From positions 16,569 through 80,568 of the forward strand of contig JAMCQL010000014.1 in assembly GCA_023381615.1 (NCBI GenBank): a stretch of 64,000 nt of DNA, written 5' to 3'. The DNA comes from Bacteroidota bacterium. Lineage in GTDB: Bacteria > Bacteroidota > Ignavibacteria > Kryptoniales > JAKASW01. Position numbers and translations under genes: made by a program. The notes under the pieces are model-generated. The model was not told the origin of the DNA and did no database searches. It saw nothing but the letters and a program-made list of their open reading frames with translations. Position 1 is the stretch's first letter; every line of letters starts with the position of its first letter. Positions 1,021-52,062 of the stretch are shown piece by piece.

Positions 1021-1042
1021 TCCTCTTACTGTATCGAGGGTT

Positions 1043-1238
1043 ACGACGAGTTTACCCAAAATGCCATGAGATTTGAGAATTTGGTCTTGACCTCCCCTTA
1101 GTCCCCTCCTTGACAAGGAGGGGATAAAGGGGTGGTTGATTCGTGATGATCTTAGTAGGCTTATCTTACAACTTGAGTTAGATCCTATGTCGATTTCCAC
1201 GAGGTCCTGTCGATCGTAATCAAAATGGGTAAACTCGT
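1043..1238. mobile_element. 196-bp MITE, copy 1
   Basis: Identical by eye to 43761..43956. The termini ACGACGAGTTTACCCA... and ...TGGGTAAACTCGT form 13-15 bp inverted repeats. A perfect 8-bp direct repeat CGAGGGTT flanks it directly (1035..1042 and 1239..1246). It has a central hairpin CCCCTCCTTGACAAGGAGGGG and no coding capacity. Confidence 0.8.
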
Positions 1239-1244
1239 CGAGGG

Positions 1245-2790
1245 TTCCTGAGTTTCCCACGTTGTTGAGGGAATGTTGAAAAGCCTTGAAATGGAGGTAA
1301 ATTTTGGGTAAACCAGGATGTGAAACCGCACTACGAGAGAATACGGAAAGTGAAGACGGCTTCTGGAAGTACAGCCGTACAGGTAGGATGGTACGTTGGG
1401 AAACGGTTTCATGTGACAAAGCATATTGGTTCAGCTCGCGAGACAGAGAAGGTCGTGGAATTAGTGAGGATGGGGGAAGAATATATTCGTTCGCATTCTC
1501 GGCAAGTAGAACTGAACTTCGACCCACATTCGGAAGAAATCTTATTTAAAAGAGGGATTACTGTTGCCAAGAGCACGCTTTCGGAAGCATACTCTTATCT
1601 GGGTGAGGTATATGAGAAGATCGGCTTTAGGCAACTGAGAAGCGCTGTCCTCAAAGATTTCGCCATTGTTCGAGTATTGGAGCCATCTTCTAAAGCAAGG
1701 TCAGTCTTGCTATTGAAGAAATATTTTGACATCGACTATAAAAAGACAACAGTCTTTAGGCATCTTGATGAATTGGTGGATCTGAAGGATGAAGCAGTCC
1801 GGGTCGCCATAGAATATGCGAGGGAGCATTTGCAATTTGATTTCACCCTTATCTTTTATGATGTCACGACGTTGTACTTTGAGAGTTTTAGCGAAGACGA
1901 GTTAAGACGGAATGGGTTTTCCAAGGACAATAAAATCAATCAGCCGCAAATTCTCATCGGCTTGGTTGTCGATAGAACGGGGTTCCCCATTTACTACGAC
2001 ATGTTCGCCGGGAATACGTTTGAAGGAAAAACAATTATTCCGGTCATCATGGCTCTGAAAGAGCGGTACCAGATAGAGAAGTGTACCATCGTTGCCGATG
2101 CTGGGATGCTTTCTGAAAAGAATTTGGAAGAGCTTCAGAAGAACCGCCTTGATTACATAGTTGGTGCGCGGATAGGCAACATGAACCCTGAGGAGGCGAG
2201 GCGCATTGCAAATCAACTTGAGAAGACAGATAAGAGGATCATTAAATCTGACACTGTACTCTATGAATATTCCGCGGCGAGAGCAAAGAAAGACAAAGCA
2301 GATAATGATAAAGCGATTGCGAAAGCAGAGTACTACCTGAAGCACCCTTCGAGGGTGTTGAAGCGATCTAAGTTTTTAGCAAGCAGCGGAGAGAGGGACT
2401 TTGCTCTTGATGAGAAACTTATCGAGAAACACAGGTTGCTCGAAGGAATAAAGGGATACAGAACCAACATTACCGACGTGCCACCGGATGTTTTGATTGC
2501 TCGCTACAGAGATCTGTGGAAAATCGAGCAATCATTCAGAATAGCAAAATCTGATCTGGGAGAACGACCAATCTACCACCGTATGGAGAGACCGATTAAA
2601 TATCATCTCCTGATTGTCTTTGTCGCACTTTGCATGACACGCGTCATCGAGAAAGAAAAAGGAACATCCATTAACCATATCGTAAGCGAACTCAAGGACA
2701 AATGGACAATTACTCTAAATGATGAAATATCAGGCAATTCCCTTAACATCACCCTCGATAAAAAACCGCACTAAATGGGAAACTCGGGAA
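1245..2790 (+). mobile_element. insertion sequence, IS4 superfamily (IS1634-like), about 1.55 kb
   Basis: Terminal inverted repeats TTCCTGAGTTTCCCA (1245..1259) and TGGGAAACTCGGGAA (2776..2790) are 14/15 complementary. They enclose a single transposase ORF. I found no clear target duplication. Confidence 0.8.
1320..2774 (+). CDS. DDE transposase, IS4/IS1634 group
   Basis: 484 aa with a GTG start. The C-terminal signature YRDLWKIEQSFRIAK (Y-x3-W-x-I-E-x2-F-x3-K) and DAGM... acidic motifs match IS4-superfamily transposases. Confidence 0.85.
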   Translation: MKPHYERIRKVKTASGSTAVQVGWYVGKRFHVTKHIGSARETEKVVELVRMGEEYIRSHSRQVELNFDPHSEEILFKRGITVAKSTLSEAYSYLGEVYEKIGFRQLRSAVLKDFAIVRVLEPSSKARSVLLLKKYFDIDYKKTTVFRHLDELVDLKDEAVRVAIEYAREHLQFDFTLIFYDVTTLYFESFSEDELRRNGFSKDNKINQPQILIGLVVDRTGFPIYYDMFAGNTFEGKTIIPVIMALKERYQIEKCTIVADAGMLSEKNLEELQKNRLDYIVGARIGNMNPEEARRIANQLEKTDKRIIKSDTVLYEYSAARAKKDKADNDKAIAKAEYYLKHPSRVLKRSKFLASSGERDFALDEKLIEKHRLLEGIKGYRTNITDVPPDVLIARYRDLWKIEQSFRIAKSDLGERPIYHRMERPIKYHLLIVFVALCMTRVIEKEKGTSINHIVSELKDKWTITLNDEISGNSLNITLDKKPH

Positions 2791-2880
2791 AGAACATTAC
2801 TCAAAGAAAAATCTGAAAGCAAACTACAACATTGCAAAGAAAGGAATATAATTATGACTGGTTCAAAGAACATTAATCAA

Positions 2881-2959
2881 ATGCCGCCTTTGCCGCCTTC
2901 GGCATGCCGTAAGCGGCAGCGGCATCCCGCACTCCAAATTCAATAATGTTGAGCGGGAG
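2881..2959 (-). repeat. hairpin repeat family TCCCGCTCA..ATTATT..TGCGGGATGCCGC, reverse-orientation copy
   Basis: The reverse complement reads CTCCCGCTCAACATTATTGAATTTGGAGTGCGGGATGCCGC...GGCAT. Related copies lie at 40358..40406 and 41800..41876. Confidence 0.6.
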
Positions 2960-2994
2960 AAAAATCTGAAAGCATTGATAGGGATTTAGCAATT

Positions 2995-18813: not shown

Positions 18814-19111
18814 AGCTGGACATAGAAACCCCACCGTCTTTTCCCAAAGGACTCGTGCGGAGACGGTGTTTATGTACAAATGGCTTTGTCTGTTTATCGA
18901 CCCTTACTGTCCTCCCCGCAAAGTCGGGACGGGGCTTCTCCCCCTTGTCAAGGGGGAGAAAAAGAGGGGGTTGTCCACGGGATCTCCGCTTACGGAGTCT
19001 TCGACCTGCGGAAAAGAAAGCCGCCGCCTACGGCGGTGGTCGTTTACCTTTCGCTCTATTCTTACAGAATTAGCAGCCGCCAGCCATTTCGATATTATCC
19101 ACATAAGTTTA

Positions 19112-43096: not shown

Positions 43097-43203
43097 TTCT
43101 TTGATTCCGAGGTTGTATGCCATGAAAGCCAGCACATCCGCAGCTTGCGCGATGCGCTTGTCTGTCGGCATGTAGTTGTGGCTCGTCTTTGTCTCGACTC
43201 GAA
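43097..43203 (-). pseudogene. orphan duplicate of the prolyl-oligopeptidase 3' end (left copy of a 107-bp direct repeat)
   Basis: Base-for-base identical to 44048..44154. In frame it encodes ...ETKTSHNYMPTDKRIAQAADVLAFMAYNLGIKE, then its own tail PRPTGKKY and a stop. Confidence 0.8.
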
Positions 43204-43243: not shown

Positions 43244-43498
43244 TCACTTATACACATCTTTTCTATGCTTGATTCTGTAGATCAGGATTTCTTTACCCTT
43301 ATCAGAGATTTCATATAGGATGCGATAATTGCCCGCGCGAATTCTATATCCGTCAGTGCCTGTAAGCTTCTGTACGCCAATCGGCCGTGGCTCTTCAGAA
43401 AGGTTTTGTATCCGGGATGAAATGTGTAAGACTTCCTTATCGGGAAGCGAATCCAGATCTTTTTGCGCTGATGGCTTAACGATTATCTCGTATGCCAC
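43244..43498 (-). CDS. RelE/ParE-family type II toxin
   Basis: 84 aa, MAYEIIVKPSAQKDLDSLP...YRIRAGNYRILYEI...ILIYRIKHRKDVY. Confidence 0.8.
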   Translation of the reverse strand: MAYEIIVKPSAQKDLDSLPDKEVLHISSRIQNLSEEPRPIGVQKLTGTDGYRIRAGNYRILYEISDKGKEILIYRIKHRKDVYK

Positions 43499-43691
43499 GC
43501 TTGCTCAAGTATCCGATCAAGGTTAGATCTTTCCCTTTTACAGTCTTTGCGCTCTCCAAATCATACTTGTCTTCAAGCAATTCAACCAGTTCACCAAAGG
43601 TCGGACTCTTCTTCAACTGTTCCCATTCCTTCCTCGGAATGCGAATATCATCTTTCCTTTGCTGCAACCGCGCTCTTCGATTGGCTAACAT
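43476..43691 (-). CDS. putative cognate antitoxin
   Basis: 71 aa. The ATG at 43691 follows GAGGTG. It overlaps the toxin start by 23 nt. Family not recognised. Confidence 0.55.
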   Translation of the reverse strand: MLANRRARLQQRKDDIRIPRKEWEQLKKSPTFGELVELLEDKYDLESAKTVKGKDLTLIGYLSKRGIRDNR

Positions 43692-43760
43692 TGTATCACC
43701 TCTGTAAAAATCTCTTCTGAATAAGTTAAGGCAATTTTCTGGGACGGTCAACAGGAAGCG

Positions 43761-43956
43761 ACGACGAGTTTACCCAAAATGCCATGAGATTTGAGAATTT
43801 GGTCTTGACCTCCCCTTAGTCCCCTCCTTGACAAGGAGGGGATAAAGGGGTGGTTGATTCGTGATGATCTTAGTAGGCTTATCTTACAACTTGAGTTAGA
43901 TCCTATGTCGATTTCCACGAGGTCCTGTCGATCGTAATCAAAATGGGTAAACTCGT
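43761..43956. mobile_element. 196-bp MITE, copy 2
   Basis: Identical by eye to 1043..1238. GAAGCG is repeated on both flanks (43755..43760 and 43958..43963, the right copy offset by 1 nt). Confidence 0.8.
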
Positions 43957-44029
43957 TGAAGCGACCGATCAGCCATCGAATTTCAGCCACTGTCTGACTG
44001 CTGAAAGCTGACAGCTGATCGCGCCTTTT

Positions 44030-46315
44030 TTACTTTCCCGCCGGTGCTTCTTTGATTCCGAGGTTGTATGCCATGAAAGCCAGCACATCCGCAGCTTGCG
44101 CGATGCGCTTGTCTGTCGGCATGTAGTTGTGGCTCGTCTTTGTCTCGACTCGAATCAGCACCGGGTTATCACAAGCCTGATCGTGCTGCATCTCGGCGAT
44201 GAATTTGTATGAGTGGCTCGGCACGACCCTGTCATCGTGATCGGCGGTCGTGACAATTGTCGGAGGATAACATGTACCAGGCTTGATGTTCTGCACCGGT
44301 GAATATTTGATAAGATACTGGAAATCAGTTGAGTCATCCGATGAACCGTACTCAGGAACCCAACCTACTCCCGCGGAAAATTTCTGGTAACGAAGCATGT
44401 CCATGACTCCCGCGCCGGCGTATGCTGCTCCGTAAAGGTCGGGGCGCTGTGTCTCTACAGCACCGATAAGAAGTCCGCCATTCGAATATCCCTCGATGCC
44501 GAGCTTCGGTGTCGATGTGTATTTTTCTTTTATCAGGTATTCGGCAGCGGCAATGAAATCGTCGAACACGTTCTGCTTTTTGCTCAGCATCCCAGCGTGA
44601 TGCCACGCTTCGCCATATTCGCCGCCGCCTCGTAAGTTTGCCACCGCATAAATGCCGCCCATCTCAAGCCAGGCGGCGGTCGTAGGACTGAATGACGGCG
44701 TGATGCTGATATTGAATCCGCCGTAGGCATAAAGGAGTGTCGGGTTCTCCCCGTCGAGCTTCAATCCCTTTTTCATCGTAATAAACATCGGAATTCGAGT
44801 GCCATCTTTGGAGTGATAAAACACTTGCTTTGTCTCATAATTGTTTGGACTAAAGTCTACATGCGGCGGTTGGAATTCCGTGCTCTTTCCTGTCTTGTCC
44901 CGACGAAGGTCGGGATCCTTCGGAAAGTCATAATGGAACACTGTTGTTGGATAGAGAAATGACGTGAAAGCGTAGAATAGCTCCGGTGTGTCGTAACGGC
45001 CGCTCATTCCTCCTACTGTGCCAAGTCCGGGTAGCTTCAGTTTTCCTTCGGCTTTTCCTTTGAGCGAGTAGAATGACACTTCGCTCTTCGCATCGACGAG
45101 ACGCATGACAACAACCCGTCCGCCCGCGAGGAGCGACTGCTCAATCACATTCTTCGATTCAGGAACGACTGTCTTCCAATTTTTCGGATCGGGATGGTTT
45201 ATATCGAATGACACCATGCGACGGTTCGGTGCATCAAGAGTTGTCTGCATATAAAGTGTCGTCCCGACATTTCCAATCGGATAGTATTCGGCGTCGTCTT
45301 TTTCAAATAACGGAGTGACAGGCGATGAAAGGTCGGGATTTCCCGGGTCTTTCAGATCGACATAATAGACTTTGTTTTTGGACTCCGTCCCTTTATTCAG
45401 GATTATGAAAAGGTACCGCCCATCTTCCGTTACTCCACCGCCAACGTACCAGCCGGGATAGTCTTTCAGGTCATAGAAAAGTTTATCGTCGCTCTGTGGA
45501 GTTCCGAGTTTGTGGTAGTAAAGCTCCTGTCCGACAGCCTCGGACATCAGAGCCTCACCCTTCTTTGGCTCCGGGAATCTCGAATAGAAGAATCCGCGGT
45601 TGTCGTTCGTCCACGCGATTCCTGAGAATTTTACCCAATGAACCGTGTCGGCGAGATCTTTTCCGGTCGCAAGGTCGCGGACATGAAGCTCCTCCCAATC
45701 CGCTCCGCCTTGAGAAAGTCCATAGCATAGATATTTCCCATTCGGCGAGGCCTCATAGCTTAGAAGCGCAATCGAGCCGTCGGGCGAGAGCTTGTTCGGA
45801 TCGAGGATCATCCTTGGTTTGCCCGCCAAAGACTTCTGGACGTAAACCGGGCTTTGGTTCTGCAATCCGGAGTTCTTGCTGTAGAAGAGTTCCCCCGACC
45901 GGGTCGGGGTCGGCACTCCGACCTTCTCGTAGTTCCAGAGCTTTGTGATTCTTTTATTGATCCACTTTCGGACGGGAATCTTGCCTAAGTAATCGAAGGT
46001 GACTTTGTTTTCCGCTTCGACCCACGTTTCCACTTCAGGACTGTTTTGATTCTCCATCCATTGATATGGGGCGGGGACTTTCGTTCCGAAATAATTGTCA
46101 ACGATAGTATCCCTGCGTGCGACCGGATAAGTCAAGGATTGGCCTTTGACGGTGAGCGGTAAAATAATCATAGCGACAAGAATGAATAATTCGAAGTTAA
46201 GCGCGGTCCGAGTTCCCAGGAAAGATGGAATGTTTCCCTTCCTCGTTCGTCTCGATTGATAAATAGGAATAGCGAAGATCAGCAGAATGCTGAAGAGTAT
46301 TAAGAGCGCTGACAT
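44030..46315 (-). CDS. prolyl oligopeptidase (S9A serine peptidase)
   Basis: N-terminal beta-propeller and a C-terminal hydrolase with GYSNGGLL (nucleophile Ser), ...TADHDDRV... and TKTSHNY. The true start may be an internal Met before the signal-like MIILPLTVKG. Confidence 0.9.
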   Translation of the reverse strand: MSALLILFSILLIFAIPIYQSRRTRKGNIPSFLGTRTALNFELFILVAMIILPLTVKGQSLTYPVARRDTIVDNYFGTKVPAPYQWMENQNSPEVETWVEAENKVTFDYLGKIPVRKWINKRITKLWNYEKVGVPTPTRSGELFYSKNSGLQNQSPVYVQKSLAGKPRMILDPNKLSPDGSIALLSYEASPNGKYLCYGLSQGGADWEELHVRDLATGKDLADTVHWVKFSGIAWTNDNRGFFYSRFPEPKKGEALMSEAVGQELYYHKLGTPQSDDKLFYDLKDYPGWYVGGGVTEDGRYLFIILNKGTESKNKVYYVDLKDPGNPDLSSPVTPLFEKDDAEYYPIGNVGTTLYMQTTLDAPNRRMVSFDINHPDPKNWKTVVPESKNVIEQSLLAGGRVVVMRLVDAKSEVSFYSLKGKAEGKLKLPGLGTVGGMSGRYDTPELFYAFTSFLYPTTVFHYDFPKDPDLRRDKTGKSTEFQPPHVDFSPNNYETKQVFYHSKDGTRIPMFITMKKGLKLDGENPTLLYAYGGFNISITPSFSPTTAAWLEMGGIYAVANLRGGGEYGEAWHHAGMLSKKQNVFDDFIAAAEYLIKEKYTSTPKLGIEGYSNGGLLIGAVETQRPDLYGAAYAGAGVMDMLRYQKFSAGVGWVPEYGSSDDSTDFQYLIKYSPVQNIKPGTCYPPTIVTTADHDDRVVPSHSYKFIAEMQHDQACDNPVLIRVETKTSHNYMPTDKRIAQAADVLAFMAYNLGIKEAPAGK

Positions 46316-50195: not shown

Positions 50196-50332
50196 AATCT
50201 TGGTCCTGTGAACATTGCATTAACTGGGAGCAAGAAAAAGACAAAGACATTTGCAGCAAATGTTACTGGGGAAATCCAGAAAACTATTTACACATTGCAT
50301 TACGCACAGCTCGACGCCTCGATATTCTATAA
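50196..50332 (+). pseudogene. relic 3' end (about 44 codons plus stop) of an HNH endonuclease gene
   Basis: 50196..50307 is identical to 51815..51926 inside the intact HNH gene. Similarity continues with 3 mismatches to 50328. The relic keeps the frame (..CEHCINWEQEKDKDICSKCYWGNPENYLHIALRTARRLDIL) and ends at its own TAA. Confidence 0.75.
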
Positions 50333-50418: not shown

Positions 50419-51333
50419 ATGAGAACTCCTCATCCTATACCGTATCAAGGAAGCAAACGAAATCTTGCACCCAAGATTTTGTCCTTTATTCCCTCCGATA
50501 TTCAGACATTGTTTGAGCCTTTTGCCGGGTCAGCCGCAGTGTCTATAGCAGCCGCTCTCAGGAAAAAAAGCAAGCTCTTTCATCTTAACGACATAAACAA
50601 ACCGCTCATGGATTTATGGGAATTGATTATTAAAAAACCTGAGGTAATTGTCAAGCAATATGCCAAACTCTGGCATGATCAAAAGGGGAACGAAAGAGAG
50701 TTTTATGACAGGGTGAGAGAGAAGTTCAATAAAACACGAAGGCCGGACTTTCTCTTATACCTTCTTGCGCGATGTGTCAAAGCTGCTATACGGTATAACT
50801 TTGATGGAGAGTTTAACCAAAGTCCGGATAATCGACGGCTTGGACGGCATCCATCCTTGATGAAGCAAGATATCTTGGCTGCATCATATTTACTTAAGAA
50901 TCGCTCAACTCTTACTTGCCAGGATTATAGGGAAGTTCTAAGTCGAGCGAAAAAGCACGACCTCATATATATGGACCCGCCGTATCAAGGTACTTTTGCA
51001 AGCGGCGGATTCCGCTACTTTAAAGATTTGGAGTTCGAAACTTTCGTGTCTTCTTTATATGATCTCACGAGCAGAGACATCCCATTCATCCTAAGCTATG
51101 ATGGACGTACTGAGGACAAAACCTTTGGTAAACCCTTGCCACAGGATCTAGGGTTAAAGAAGATAGAGATTAAAGCCGGCAGATCTTCTCAAGCAACCCT
51201 GTTAGGACGTAATCACTTCACGTATGAATCTCTATATTTATCAAAAGCTTTAATAGTTAAACTAAGGATAGATTCAAAAGAAATCACGGATCACAAATCT
51301 ATTCAACAGACAGAGATGTTTAGCTCCTACTAA
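50419..51333 (+). CDS. Dam-like (D12 class, alpha-type) N6-adenine DNA methyltransferase
   Basis: Has PYQGSKRNLAPKI, FEPFAGSAAVS (SAM motif) and IYMDPPYQG (DPPY). Confidence 0.85.
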   Translation: MRTPHPIPYQGSKRNLAPKILSFIPSDIQTLFEPFAGSAAVSIAAALRKKSKLFHLNDINKPLMDLWELIIKKPEVIVKQYAKLWHDQKGNEREFYDRVREKFNKTRRPDFLLYLLARCVKAAIRYNFDGEFNQSPDNRRLGRHPSLMKQDILAASYLLKNRSTLTCQDYREVLSRAKKHDLIYMDPPYQGTFASGGFRYFKDLEFETFVSSLYDLTSRDIPFILSYDGRTEDKTFGKPLPQDLGLKKIEIKAGRSSQATLLGRNHFTYESLYLSKALIVKLRIDSKEITDHKSIQQTEMFSSY

Positions 51334-52062
51334 ATGAAAAAGCAAAACCCGCCGAAACAATTTCTGAAGATGGCTCGGACAATTACGAACAAGAGGGCGA
51401 AAATTGTCATAGAGCACATTTTGAAGCATGGCTTCATAACAACTGAAGATTTAGAAACCAAATATGGCTATAACCATCCACCTCGTGCTGCACGAGATGT
51501 CCGTGAAGCCGGCATTCCTCTTGAAACATTCAAGGTCAAGGATAGGAAAGGTAGATCAATCGCGGCGTATAGATTTGGGGACTTTTCCAAAATCCAGAAG
51601 AACAAACTTAGTGGCAGGGCAGTCTTTTCAAAGGAATTCAAAGAAGAACTTTTCAAGATGCAGAGTGGCAGGTGTGCAATATGCAATGGCACCTTTGAAA
51701 CTCGGTACCTTCAGATAGACCACAGGGTTCCGTATGAAGTTGCTGGAGATAAAGCTTCGACAAAAAAAGAGACTTCGGAGTTCATGCTGCTCTGTGCCTC
51801 ATGCAACAGAGCAAAATCTTGGTCCTGTGAACATTGCATTAACTGGGAGCAAGAAAAAGACAAAGACATTTGCAGCAAATGTTACTGGGGAAATCCAGAA
51901 AACTATTTACACATTGCATTACGCACGGTTCGGCGCCTCGATATTCTCTGGGAAGAAAACGAAATCAAGAGTTATGATAGGCTTAGAACTCTGGCAGAAC
52001 AAGAAAAGACACCTCTACCCGATTTTGTGAAGAAAACCTTGGAGAAACAATTCAAAAACTAA
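51334..52062 (+). CDS. HNH-family restriction endonuclease candidate
   Basis: Starts 1 nt after the methyltransferase stop. Has CAICNG...LQIDHRVPY...LLCASCNRAKS (HNH) plus CEHC...CSKC zinc-ribbon-like Cys pairs. Confidence 0.75.
   Translation: MKKQNPPKQFLKMARTITNKRAKIVIEHILKHGFITTEDLETKYGYNHPPRAARDVREAGIPLETFKVKDRKGRSIAAYRFGDFSKIQKNKLSGRAVFSKEFKEELFKMQSGRCAICNGTFETRYLQIDHRVPYEVAGDKASTKKETSEFMLLCASCNRAKSWSCEHCINWEQEKDKDICSKCYWGNPENYLHIALRTVRRLDILWEENEIKSYDRLRTLAEQEKTPLPDFVKKTLEKQFKN

What the first reader, a model, noticed from the sequence alone, without database searches (positions are those of the whole stretch)
1035..2790. 196-bp MITE with ends resembling the adjacent IS ends, inserted exactly at the IS boundary
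Two copies (1043..1238 and 43761..43956) look identical. Copy 1 is flanked by a perfect 8-bp duplication, CGAGGGTT, whose right copy overlaps the first 2 nt of the IS left inverted repeat.

The MITE termini (CGAGTTTACCCA / TGGGTAAACTCG) differ from the IS inverted repeats (YGAGTTTCCCA / TGGGAAACTCR) by essentially one inserted A. The MITE may therefore be a non-autonomous element mobilised by this IS4/IS1634-like transposase or a close relative.

Its centre carries the CCTTGACAAGG palindrome found in the genome's REP-like repeats.
Basis: seen in the sequence. Interest (0 to 1): 0.55.

Follow-up and report, generated by a model that had tools for sequence, protein, structure and literature searches.

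The report
Recently mobile 195-bp MITE beside IS
This is an ordinary small non-coding jumping element (a MITE) that moved recently in an uncultured Bacteroidota-like bacterium; its end sequences resemble those of the neighbouring IS1634-family insertion sequence, but that neighbour is probably not the enzyme source that moves it.

Summary
Two copies are identical over 196 nt (1043-1238, 43761-43956).

An empty site for copy 2 in five related assemblies shows the insertion is 203 bp. That is a 195-bp element (43763-43957; copy 1 = 1045-1239) with 14-bp terminal inverted repeats (GACGAGTTTACCCA) plus an 8-bp target duplication (GAAGCGAC). It is therefore a real MITE that moved recently, with at least four copies in the population.

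The neighbour (1246-2789, 1544 bp) is an intact IS1634-family IS with inverted repeats TCCYGAGTTTCCCA. The MITE ends share CGAGTTT[A]CCCA(TTT) with it, which is well beyond chance. The similarity stops after about 15 nt, and several things argue against a direct link:
- The outermost nucleotides differ.
- All seven sampled members of this IS clade lack the extra A.
- Where duplications were detectable, the clade makes long ones (33 to about 100 bp; 28-33 bp in distant relatives), not 8-9 bp.

No autonomous element with GAGTTTACCCA ends was found. Other metagenomic MITE families carry the same end core and make 8-11-bp duplications.

Most likely an unsampled transposase with matching ends mobilises the MITE. 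It is possibly IS1634-related. The adjacent IS is at best a weak candidate helper.

The duplication of copy 1 straddles the flank/IS junction, so the MITE arrived after the IS, perhaps drawn to its similar end.

Verdict: new member of a known kind, low to moderate interest.

The parts
1045..1239 (+). MITE copy 1 (195 bp), GACGAGTTTACCCA...TGGGTAAACTCGTC, perfect 14-bp terminal inverted repeats
   Evidence: Boundaries carried over from the empty-site comparison of copy 2. They agree with the point where other copies diverge in L001 and L002. Inverted repeat reported (I23). Copy 1 is present in every contig that carries this IS.
1036..1044 (.). Left flanking repeat of copy 1: GAGGGTTAC. Alternative register: TCGAGGGTT at 1034-1042.
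   Evidence: Read directly. The register is supported, where every other element with a clear duplication has exactly 3 nt outside GAGTTT.
1240..1248 (.). Right flanking repeat of copy 1: GAGGGTTCC. Alternative register: TCGAGGGTT at 1238-1246. It overlaps the first 3 (or 1) nt of the IS.
   Evidence: IS start fixed.
1090..1136 (.). Central hairpin of the MITE (23-nt arms, 87% complementary) around the palindrome CCTTGACAAGG (1108-1118)
   Evidence: I6, I7; folded as single-stranded DNA, -36.7 kcal/mol, z = -6.1; the palindrome occurs 8 times against 0.02 expected.
1246..2789 (+). IS1634-family insertion sequence, 1544 bp. IRL is TCCTGAGTTTCCCA (1246-1259) and IRR is TGGGAAACTCGGGA (2776-2789).
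   Evidence: Ends defined by comparison with seven clade members in different flanks. Exact motif hits. Cluster members are named 'IS1634 family transposase' by NCBI.
1320..2774 (+). Transposase gene, 484 aa, DDE_Tnp_1 domain
   Evidence: E = 1.7e-16; more than 7000 homologues. D181, D260 and E403 are invariant, and L399 sits where IS4 has the R of the YREK motif.
1305..1318 (+). Internal IRR-like site TGGGTAAACCAGGA just upstream of the GTG start. The overlapping stretch 1301-1313, ATTTTGGGTAAAC, matches the MITE-type end 13 of 13.
   Evidence: (13-nt exact match). The homologous region in relatives reads GGTAAAAA(A)GTAGTGTG.
43763..43957 (+). MITE copy 2 (195 bp), GACGAG...CTCGTT. It is polymorphic: absent from five related assemblies.
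   Evidence: empty sites in L071, L072 and L075; the same spacing in L073 and L074. The filled site is also seen independently in L023.
43755..43762 (.). Left target-site duplication of copy 2, GAAGCGAC
   Evidence: present once in the empty sites.
43958..43965 (.). Right target-site duplication of copy 2, GAAGCGAC

Best explanation
The 195-bp element is a genuine MITE, a non-autonomous DNA transposon, and it was active recently. A DDE transposase supplied in trans binds its 14-bp terminal inverted repeats (GACGAGTTTACCCA). It then inserts the element at a staggered cut of 8 (to 9) bp, which becomes the target duplication.

The inverted repeats are related to those of the IS1634-family clade to which the neighbouring IS (1246-2789) belongs, but they are not identical. 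The MITE is not a deletion derivative of that IS. Its helper is most likely an unsampled element with GAGTTTACCCA-type ends that makes short duplications. That helper would be a sister lineage of the IS1634/IS4 superfamily. The adjacent IS transposase is only a weak candidate.

Copy 1 inserted after the IS, into a target that straddles the flank/IS junction. The probable reason is that the helper transposase has some affinity for the similar IS end (insertion next to IR-like sequences).

Shown: mobility, boundaries, duplication, copy number, end similarity, order of events. Inferred: identity of the helper, and targeting to the IS end.
For: Mobility and boundaries:
- five related assemblies have ...GATCG GTCGCTTC CTGTTG..., where the window and L023 have the same sequence plus 203 bp. 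That is 195 bp of element plus a second GTCGCTTC.
- copies 1 and 2 are 100% identical, which fits a recent move.
- L001 and L002 show two further copies (97-98% identical) with other left flanks. They diverge exactly at GACGAG.

End similarity:
- and 13/14: the similarity to the IS ends is beyond chance (5 of 20000).
- The shared motif sits at the same distance from the tip if the IS is counted from CC.
- distant IS1634 members share only CCYGAGTT. The CCCA(T)TTT part is therefore specific to this clade.

Against the adjacent IS as helper:
- seven clade members all have TCCYGA(G/C)TTTCCCA, and none has the extra A.
- duplications in the clade and family are 28, 33, 33, 44, about 60 and about 100 bp.
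- there is no subterminal similarity.

A wider MITE group:
- other MITE families carry the same 11-nt core 3 nt from the tip, with duplications of 8, 8, 8, 8, 9, 9 and 11 bp.

Order of events:
- The flanking repeat of copy 1 includes IS nucleotides.
- The right flank of the IS carries no MITE sequence.
Against: No autonomous element with GAGTTTACCCA ends was found anywhere searched, so the helper is hypothetical.

The source genome could not be scanned in full. The helper may be there, or it may really be the adjacent IS.

Published IS1634/IS1549 duplications range from 8 to 514 bp (PMC2266710). An 8-bp duplication is therefore not formally outside the family's range.

The flanking repeat of copy 1 is ambiguous. 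It is either 9 bp with one mismatch, or a perfect 8-9 bp in a register shifted by 2 nt.

Targeting to the IS end rests on a single case.
Confidence: 0.6

Rival explanations
1. The adjacent IS1634-family transposase (1320-2774) itself mobilises the MITE. It would tolerate the one-base spacing difference and the different tip nucleotides. The short length of the element would somehow give an 8-bp duplication instead of a long one.
For: - The end similarity is significant and specific to this clade.
- The IS looks intact: 484-aa ORF, DDE residues conserved, inverted repeats matching 13 of 14.
- The IS is present in every strain seen, including those sampled before copy 2 inserted.
- The MITE sits exactly at its tip.
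- An internal site at 1301-1313 matches the MITE-type end 13 of 13.
- PMC2266710 reports duplications of 8-514 bp for IS1634 and IS1549.
Against: - The tips differ (GAC versus TCC). Terminal nucleotides are normally critical for cleavage (general knowledge of DDE transposases).
- The extra A shifts the register between the tip and the CCCA block.
- All detectable duplications in the clade are 33 to about 100 bp.
- There is no subterminal similarity.
- The same MITE-type end core occurs in metagenomic MITE families whose loci contain no IS1634 transposase.
Confidence: 0.17
2. The helper belongs to a different family, for example an IS4-family subgroup with 7-10-bp duplications. The resemblance to the IS1634 ends would then be shallow or convergent, and the adjacency a coincidence.
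For: - Duplications of 8-11 bp fit the IS4 subgroups (IS4Sa 8-10, IS50 8-9, IS10 9, ISPepr1 7-8; table in PMC2266710).
- The metagenomic relatives begin with CT (CTGGAG...), as IS10 and IS50 do.
- No IS1634 member with these ends was found.
Against: - The similarity to this particular IS1634 clade extends over 14 matching positions, including clade-specific bases.
- Landing by chance within 3 nt of an IS tip is very improbable. I estimate under 1e-3 for tens of copies in a genome of a few Mb; this is an estimate, not a computed result.
- No IS4-type element with these ends was found either.
Confidence: 0.2
3. It is not a transposon. The repeat would be a REP-like palindromic element or a duplicated intergenic segment spread by recombination.
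For: - The centre carries the genome's over-represented palindrome CCTTGWCAAGG.
- The element folds strongly as a single strand.
Against: - The empty and filled sites differ by exactly the element plus an 8-bp duplication.
- There are 14-bp terminal inverted repeats.
- The other palindrome copies in the window share only the 11-nt core.
Confidence: 0.02

Closest known systems
MITEs associated with IS1634-family elements in Methanosarcina (partners ISMba11 and ISMac10; 247-249 bp, inverted repeats 18-20 bp, duplication 6 or 0 bp; PMC3852290, table of new MITEs)
   Same: - A short non-coding element with terminal inverted repeats that resemble those of an IS1634-family IS.
- Several copies per genome.
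   Different: - The host here is bacterial (Bacteroidota-like) rather than archaeal.
- The element is 195 bp with an 8-bp duplication.
- No IS with identical ends has been identified; in Methanosarcina a partner IS was assigned.
- There is no sequence similarity to the interior of the neighbouring IS.
IS1634 / IS1549 (IS1634 family; PMC2266710)
   Same: The neighbouring IS fits the family:
- 1544 bp, within the 1500-2000 bp range.
- Ends fit C-----YT (CCTGAGTT).
- DDE transposase lacking the R of the YREK motif.
- Relatives make long duplications of variable length (28 to about 100 bp here).
   Different: - The MITE makes 8-9-bp duplications.
- Its ends start GAC, not CC.
- It has an extra A between GAGTTT and CCCA.
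Classical bacterial MITEs, for example MITECca01 derived from ISCca4 (IS982) in the Bacteroidota endosymbiont Cardinium (PMC9769881), or the 187-nt Microcystis MITE attributed to an ISL3-type transposase (PMC11448079)
   Same: - Size class.
- Terminal inverted repeats and a target duplication.
- Insertion polymorphism between closely related strains.
   Different: - A different IS superfamily.
- In those cases the parental IS with matching ends is known.
Insertion next to IR-like sequences (IS30-type IR targeting; IS911 inserting beside sequences that resemble its own ends). This is from my own knowledge and was not checked in the paper library.
   Same: An element inserted within a few nucleotides of an end sequence similar to its own. 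The MITE right end and the IS left end abut with 6 bp between them.
   Different: This is a single case, no experiment has been done, and the transposase is unknown.

Membership tests
MITE (non-autonomous DNA transposon) | Short (under about 300-500 bp) with no transposase gene | tested here: met
   The element is 195 bp. Only spurious ORFs run through it. No Rfam family reaches its threshold.
MITE (non-autonomous DNA transposon) | Terminal inverted repeats | tested here: met
   The 14-bp repeat GACGAGTTTACCCA is perfect in copy 1 and matches 13 of 14 in copy 2.
MITE (non-autonomous DNA transposon) | Target-site duplication, shown by an empty site | tested here: met
   The 8-bp GAAGCGAC occurs once in five empty sites and twice around copy 2. 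Copy 1 has 9 bp with one mismatch, or a perfect 8-9 bp in a shifted register.
MITE (non-autonomous DNA transposon) | Several dispersed copies | tested here: met
   Two copies lie in the window. Two further copies with other flanks appear in L001 and L002. The genome-wide count could not be obtained.
MITE (non-autonomous DNA transposon) | An autonomous IS with the same ends in the same or a related genome | tested here: inconclusive
   None was found in the window, in species-representative genomes (chance hits only), in viral contigs, in plasmids, or in the metagenome loci. The source genome itself could not be searched.
Non-autonomous derivative of the adjacent IS (1246-2789) | Ends identical or nearly identical to those of the IS | tested here: not met
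   There are 14 matching positions with one gap, and the tips differ. Seven clade members all lack the extra A.
Non-autonomous derivative of the adjacent IS (1246-2789) | Subterminal sequence derived from the IS (internal deletion) | tested here: not met
   Nothing beyond the inverted repeats is significantly similar, either to this IS or to three relatives.
Non-autonomous derivative of the adjacent IS (1246-2789) | Same target-duplication length as the IS | tested here: not met
   The MITE makes 8(-9) bp. The clade makes 33, 44, about 60 and about 100 bp, and distant members 28 and 33 bp. This IS copy has no detectable duplication.
IS1634 family (for the neighbouring IS) | DDE transposase of the IS4 superfamily lacking the R of the YREK motif | tested here: met
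   DDE_Tnp_1, E = 1.7e-16. Y396-x2-L399-x3-E403-x6-K410, with L399 invariant in 20 homologues. The criterion comes from PMC2266710.
IS1634 family (for the neighbouring IS) | Size 1500-2000 bp and ends of the form C-----YT | tested here: met
   1544 bp, with ends CCTGAGTT / CCCGAGTT.
IS1634 family (for the neighbouring IS) | Homology to named family members | tested here: met
   30-34% identity over about 95% of the length to plasmid genes annotated as IS1634 family. Members of its own 90% cluster carry the NCBI name 'IS1634 family transposase'.

The most novel reading that the evidence does not exclude
The GAGTTTACCCA-ended MITEs (this one and the metagenomic families) would be the non-autonomous partners of an undescribed sister lineage of the IS1634 family. 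That lineage would make short 8-11-bp duplications rather than the long variable ones. The insertion of copy 1 at the tip of the IS would reflect cross-recognition of IS1634-type ends by that transposase (IR-targeted insertion). If so, the pair gives a natural contrast for asking what sets duplication length in IS1634-type transposition. PMC2266710 notes that no mechanism has been proposed for this.
Probability: 0.2. Interest if true: 0.45.

Novelty: new member of a known kind. Interest (0 to 1): 0.3.

Why it matters
It adds a documented MITE that is currently polymorphic, with filled and empty sites, in an uncultured Bacteroidota-like lineage. It also shows that its end motif recurs in MITE families across metagenomes.

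For annotation:
- It explains assembly breaks and apparent rearrangements at this repeat.
- It fixes the boundaries of a widespread IS1634 clade of 484-aa transposases (over 7000 relatives) that makes long target duplications.

It does not change how MITEs or IS are thought to work. The only open point of wider interest is why elements with such similar ends make 8-bp rather than 30-100-bp duplications.

Tried and rejected
Searches for further copies or a partner IS:
- Species-representative genomes, 19-mer of the left end: 5 hits, each only 19 nt long. That equals the chance expectation, so the source species is not represented.
- Viral contigs with the end pattern: 21 single hits, none paired and none with a transposase, so they are chance matches.
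- Viral contigs with the transposase alone gave nothing. With an alignment there were two distant IS1634 relatives. The one examined (L076) has CCTGAGTTGGGTCA ends.
- BLASTN of the MITE against plasmids: no match.
- Full-text search for the end sequences: only unrelated primers.
- Supplements of the IS4 paper: no end sequences held as text.

Searches for empty sites:
- For the IS and copy 1: all 26 contigs carrying the exact transposase or GroEL have the same MITE-IS-groEL arrangement.
- Look-up of the antitoxin-like ORF: not on record.

Attempt to get both flanks of the third copy:
- Instead I used the permitted route: a homologue search, then its best hit.
- That gave only a 96%-identical relative without the MITE and with a diverged upstream region. 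It is consistent with an empty site but not exact.

Ideas considered and dropped:
- An IS target duplication from the similarity AGAACATTCCTC (1013-1024) / AGAACATTACTC (2791-2802). Only 11 of 12 match and the sequences then diverge, so I do not claim it.
- The 107-bp repeat around copy 2 as a long IS1634-type duplication. Rejected because the segment has no IS-like ends and the repeat is present in strains without the MITE.
Full report
**1. What is in the sequence**

The two stretches 1043-1238 and 43761-43956 are identical over 196 nt.

Copy 1 is flanked by CGAGGGTT at 1035-1042 and 1239-1246. The repeat actually runs to 9 bp, TCGAGGGTT.

Directly to its right lies a 1455-nt ORF (1320-2774, 484 aa) with a DDE_Tnp_1 domain (E = 1.7e-16). 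It is bounded by GAGTTTCCCA at 1250-1259 and its complement at 2776-2785. These are the only two occurrences in the window (0.16 expected).

The MITE-type motif GAGTTTACCCA occurs exactly four times, at the four ends of the two copies (0.66 expected even allowing one mismatch).

**2. The element is mobile, and its exact boundaries**

I looked up a 90%-cluster relative of the prolyl-oligopeptidase-like protein next to copy 2. This returned five contigs from related strains:
- two from NCBI MAGs (GCA_027401045.1 and GCA_027401035.1);
- three from ENA assemblies (ERZ27237541, ERZ27237554 and ERZ27237563).

In these contigs the intergenic region is 203 bp shorter.

I aligned three of the contigs (L071, L072, L075). 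They read ...GGCTGATCG GTCGCTTC CTGTTGACC... The window has the same sequence with GTCGCTTC twice and 195 bp in between. The other two (L073, L074) have the same 203-bp-shorter spacing.

On the + strand the element is therefore 43763-43957, GACGAGTTTACCCA...TGGGTAAACTCGTT. The duplication GAAGCGAC lies at 43755-43762 and 43958-43965.

The filled site is seen independently in JGI metagenome 3300017831 (L023). A MAG contig (L024) breaks exactly at the duplication.

This is the classical signature of insertion by a DDE transposase. With copies 1 and 2 at 100% identity, the event is recent.

**3. Further copies**

Two metagenome contigs, L001 and L002, join other left flanks to the IS-groEL context. 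One flank lies upstream of a rimO-like gene and the other downstream of a Crp-like gene.
- The join runs through MITE copies that carry 3-4 SNPs in their left half (97-98% identity).
- The shared sequence starts at GACGAG in all four copies. This agrees with the empty-site boundary.
- It also shows that the 'AC' at 1043-1044 is flank, not element.
- Whether these joins are real recombinants or assembly chimeras cannot be told.
- A 96%-identical rimO relative (L078) has no MITE upstream.

**4. Register of copy 1**

In the empty-site register, copy 1 is 1045-1239 with a perfect 14-bp inverted repeat. Its flanks are GAGGGTTAC (1036-1044) and GAGGGTTCC (1240-1248), matching 8 of 9.

It makes the element ACGACGAG...CTCGT with the 8-bp repeat, or ...CTCG with the 9-bp one.

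In every other element with a clear duplication (copy 2 and six metagenomic ones), the element has exactly 3 nt outside GAGTTT at both ends. That favours the first register, but I cannot decide between them.

Either way the right-hand repeat includes the first 1 or 3 nt of the IS. The MITE therefore inserted into a pre-existing flank/IS junction. The IS right flank carries no MITE sequence, as it would if the IS had come second and made a long duplication.

**5. The neighbouring IS**

More than 7000 homologues exist. Members of its own 90% cluster, and plasmid homologues at 30-34% identity, are named 'IS1634 family transposase'.

I fetched seven clade members at 60-100% identity, in many different flanks.
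- All begin TCCYGA(G/C)TTTCCCA(C/T)TTT. All whose 3' end was recovered finish TAATTGGGAAACTCAGGA.
- This fixes the IS here at 1246-2789 (1544 bp).

Distant members on complete plasmids and one viral contig share only the outer CCYGAGTT:
- Aliarcobacter: CCTGAGTTTCTCA
- Mycobacterium: CCTGAGTTTGGACA
- Rhodococcus: CCCGAGTTAGGACA
- L076: CCTGAGTTGGGTCA

This fits the family consensus C-----YT of PMC2266710.

The transposase has L399 where IS4 has the R of the YREK motif. That is the family trait described in the same paper.

Where both flanks could be matched, the duplications are long:

| Source | Duplication |
|---|---|
| Persicobacter plasmid | 33 bp |
| Rhodococcus plasmid | 28 bp |
| L061 | 33 bp |
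| P0013 element, across contigs | 44 bp |
| P0032 element, across contigs | about 60 and about 100 bp |

For the copy in the window no duplication is detectable.

**6. How similar are the MITE and IS ends?**

The best alignment is CGAGTTT-CCCATTT (IS right end) against CGAGTTTACCCATTT (MITE right end). It has 14 matches and one gap.
- Only 1 of 5000 shuffles reaches that score.
- Only 5 of 20000 random 25-mers from the window reach it against either IS end.

The shared CCCA(T)TTT block is specific to this clade, so the resemblance is unlikely to be a generic superfamily feature.

The limits are as follows:
- The tip nucleotides differ (GAC versus TCC).
- The extra A is absent from all seven clade members.
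- Nothing beyond the inverted repeats is similar, either to this IS or to three relatives.

The MITE is therefore not an internal-deletion derivative of this IS.

**7. A wider group of MITEs with the same end core**

A metagenome scan for GAGTTTACCCA-N165-195-TGGGTAAACTC gave 19 loci.
- Eleven belong to one MITE family of about 209 bp (CTGGAGTTTACCCAGTGT...).
- One (L025) is a different element with CACGAG tips.
- Seven elements in all have clean duplications, counting copy 2 of the window: 8, 8, 8, 8, 9, 9 and 11 bp.
- Their interiors are unrelated to the window MITE, and none of the loci encodes an IS1634-type transposase.
- A few hits (L032, L038, L041) are longer palindromes in which the motif is internal, so they do not count.

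So there is a set of non-autonomous elements with this end core and short duplications, and their autonomous partner is still unidentified.

**8. Interpretation**

The element works as a MITE. Its helper transposase recognises GAGTTTACCCA-type ends and makes staggered cuts of 8-11 bp.

The adjacent IS belongs to a clade with slightly different ends and long duplications, so it is a poor fit as helper. It cannot be excluded, because published IS1634/IS1549 duplications span 8-514 bp (PMC2266710).

An insertion whose duplication overlaps an IS tip is very unlikely by chance. I estimate under 1e-3 for tens of copies in a genome of a few Mb; this is an estimate, not a computed result. The most economical reading is that the helper has some affinity for the similar IS end and inserts beside it, as known for some other IS (own knowledge). 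That in turn favours a helper related to IS1634 over an unrelated family.

I put the possibilities at about:
- 0.6 for an unsampled helper with matching ends, within or beside IS1634. The IS4-type rival below partly overlaps this reading, so the four figures do not add up exactly;
- 0.17 for the adjacent IS itself;
- 0.2 for a different IS4-type family with coincidental adjacency;
- 0.02 for something that is not a transposon.

**9. Centre of the MITE**

A hairpin with 23-nt arms (1090-1136) surrounds CCTTGACAAGG. The palindrome CCTTGWCAAGG occurs 8 times in 64 kb against 0.02 expected.

The other copies lie in intergenic regions. Most are AACCTTGACAAGGTT, often in tandem pairs. One, at 18943, sits in a G/C-rich stem like that of the MITE.

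What the palindrome does is unknown; it could be a protein-binding site or a REP-like element. Its presence in the MITE may simply mean the MITE arose from, or captured, such a site.

**10. Comparison with what is known, and verdict**

MITEs linked to IS1634-family elements have been reported in Methanosarcina (PMC3852290). MITEs are also known in Bacteroidota (PMC9769881).

This is a new member of a known kind and is well documented by an empty site. There are two points of modest interest: the mismatch in duplication length with the IS clade it resembles, and its landing on the IS tip.

Interest 0.3.

Noticed in passing
window 43097-43203 and 44048-44154: A perfect 107-nt direct repeat of the 3' end of the prolyl-oligopeptidase-like gene (44030-46315, minus strand). 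It brackets a RelE/ParE-like toxin ORF (43244-43498, minus), an antitoxin-like ORF (43476-43751, minus) and MITE copy 2.

The repeat and the cassette are also present in strains that lack the MITE (spacing 748 instead of 951). This looks like insertion of a toxin-antitoxin cassette with a long target duplication. The toxin and antitoxin roles were judged by eye and not confirmed with a family search.
   Followed up: partly
window 50196-50328 and 51815-51947: A 133-nt direct repeat, 98% identical. One copy lies inside the 3' part of an HNH-type endonuclease-like gene (51334-52062). The other lies upstream of the adjacent adenine-methyltransferase-like gene (50419-51333).

This could be a restriction-modification unit flanked by a partial copy of its own R gene, either a remnant of a tandem duplication or a mobile unit. 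The gene functions were judged from the translations only.
   Followed up: partly
window 1301-1318: Inside the IS, just before the GTG start, the sequence TGGGTAAACCAGGA resembles the IS right end (TGGGAAACTCGGGA). The overlapping ATTTTGGGTAAAC matches the MITE-type end 13 of 13.

The homologous position in relatives reads GGTAAAAA(A)GTAGTGTG. It may be a subterminal transposase-binding or autoregulatory site.
   Followed up: partly
window 18943, 33540, 33567, 35025, 35051, 35121 (plus 1108 and 43826): The palindrome CCTTGWCAAGG occurs 8 times against 0.02 expected. Outside the MITE it sits in intergenic regions, often as tandem AACCTTGACAAGGTT pairs about 26 nt apart. It could be a REP-like repeat or an operator; its function is unknown.
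   Followed up: partly
L001 (ERZ27237587 k141_3163938) and L002 (ERZ27237541 k141_900124), about 2726-2919 in each: These contigs join rimO-like and Crp-like flanks, through variant MITE copies, to the IS-groEL locus. They are either real rearrangements by recombination between MITE copies or assembly chimeras at the repeat.
   Followed up: partly
L061, L050/L052, L101/L108, L102/L106/L110, L067, L069: The 484-aa IS1634 clade and distant plasmid-borne relatives are flanked by long direct duplications of target DNA: 28, 33, 33, 44, about 60 and about 100 bp. This extends the 'long variable direct repeat' behaviour reported for IS1634 and IS1549 to many uncultured lineages.
   Followed up: partly
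L042 1178-1406: A metagenomic MITE of about 209 bp lies 20 nt inside the left end of another copy of the same family. There is no clean duplication and the outer element does not continue on the other side. This is a complex nested or deleted arrangement near an element end.
   Followed up: no
window 2790-2980: The region between the IS right end and the groEL terminator contains short internal repeats. AAGAACATTA occurs at 2790 and 2868, and GAAAAATCTGAAAGCA at about 2806 and 2960. The first resembles AGAACATTCCTC at 1013-1024, left of the MITE. It is not enough to call an IS target duplication.
   Followed up: no
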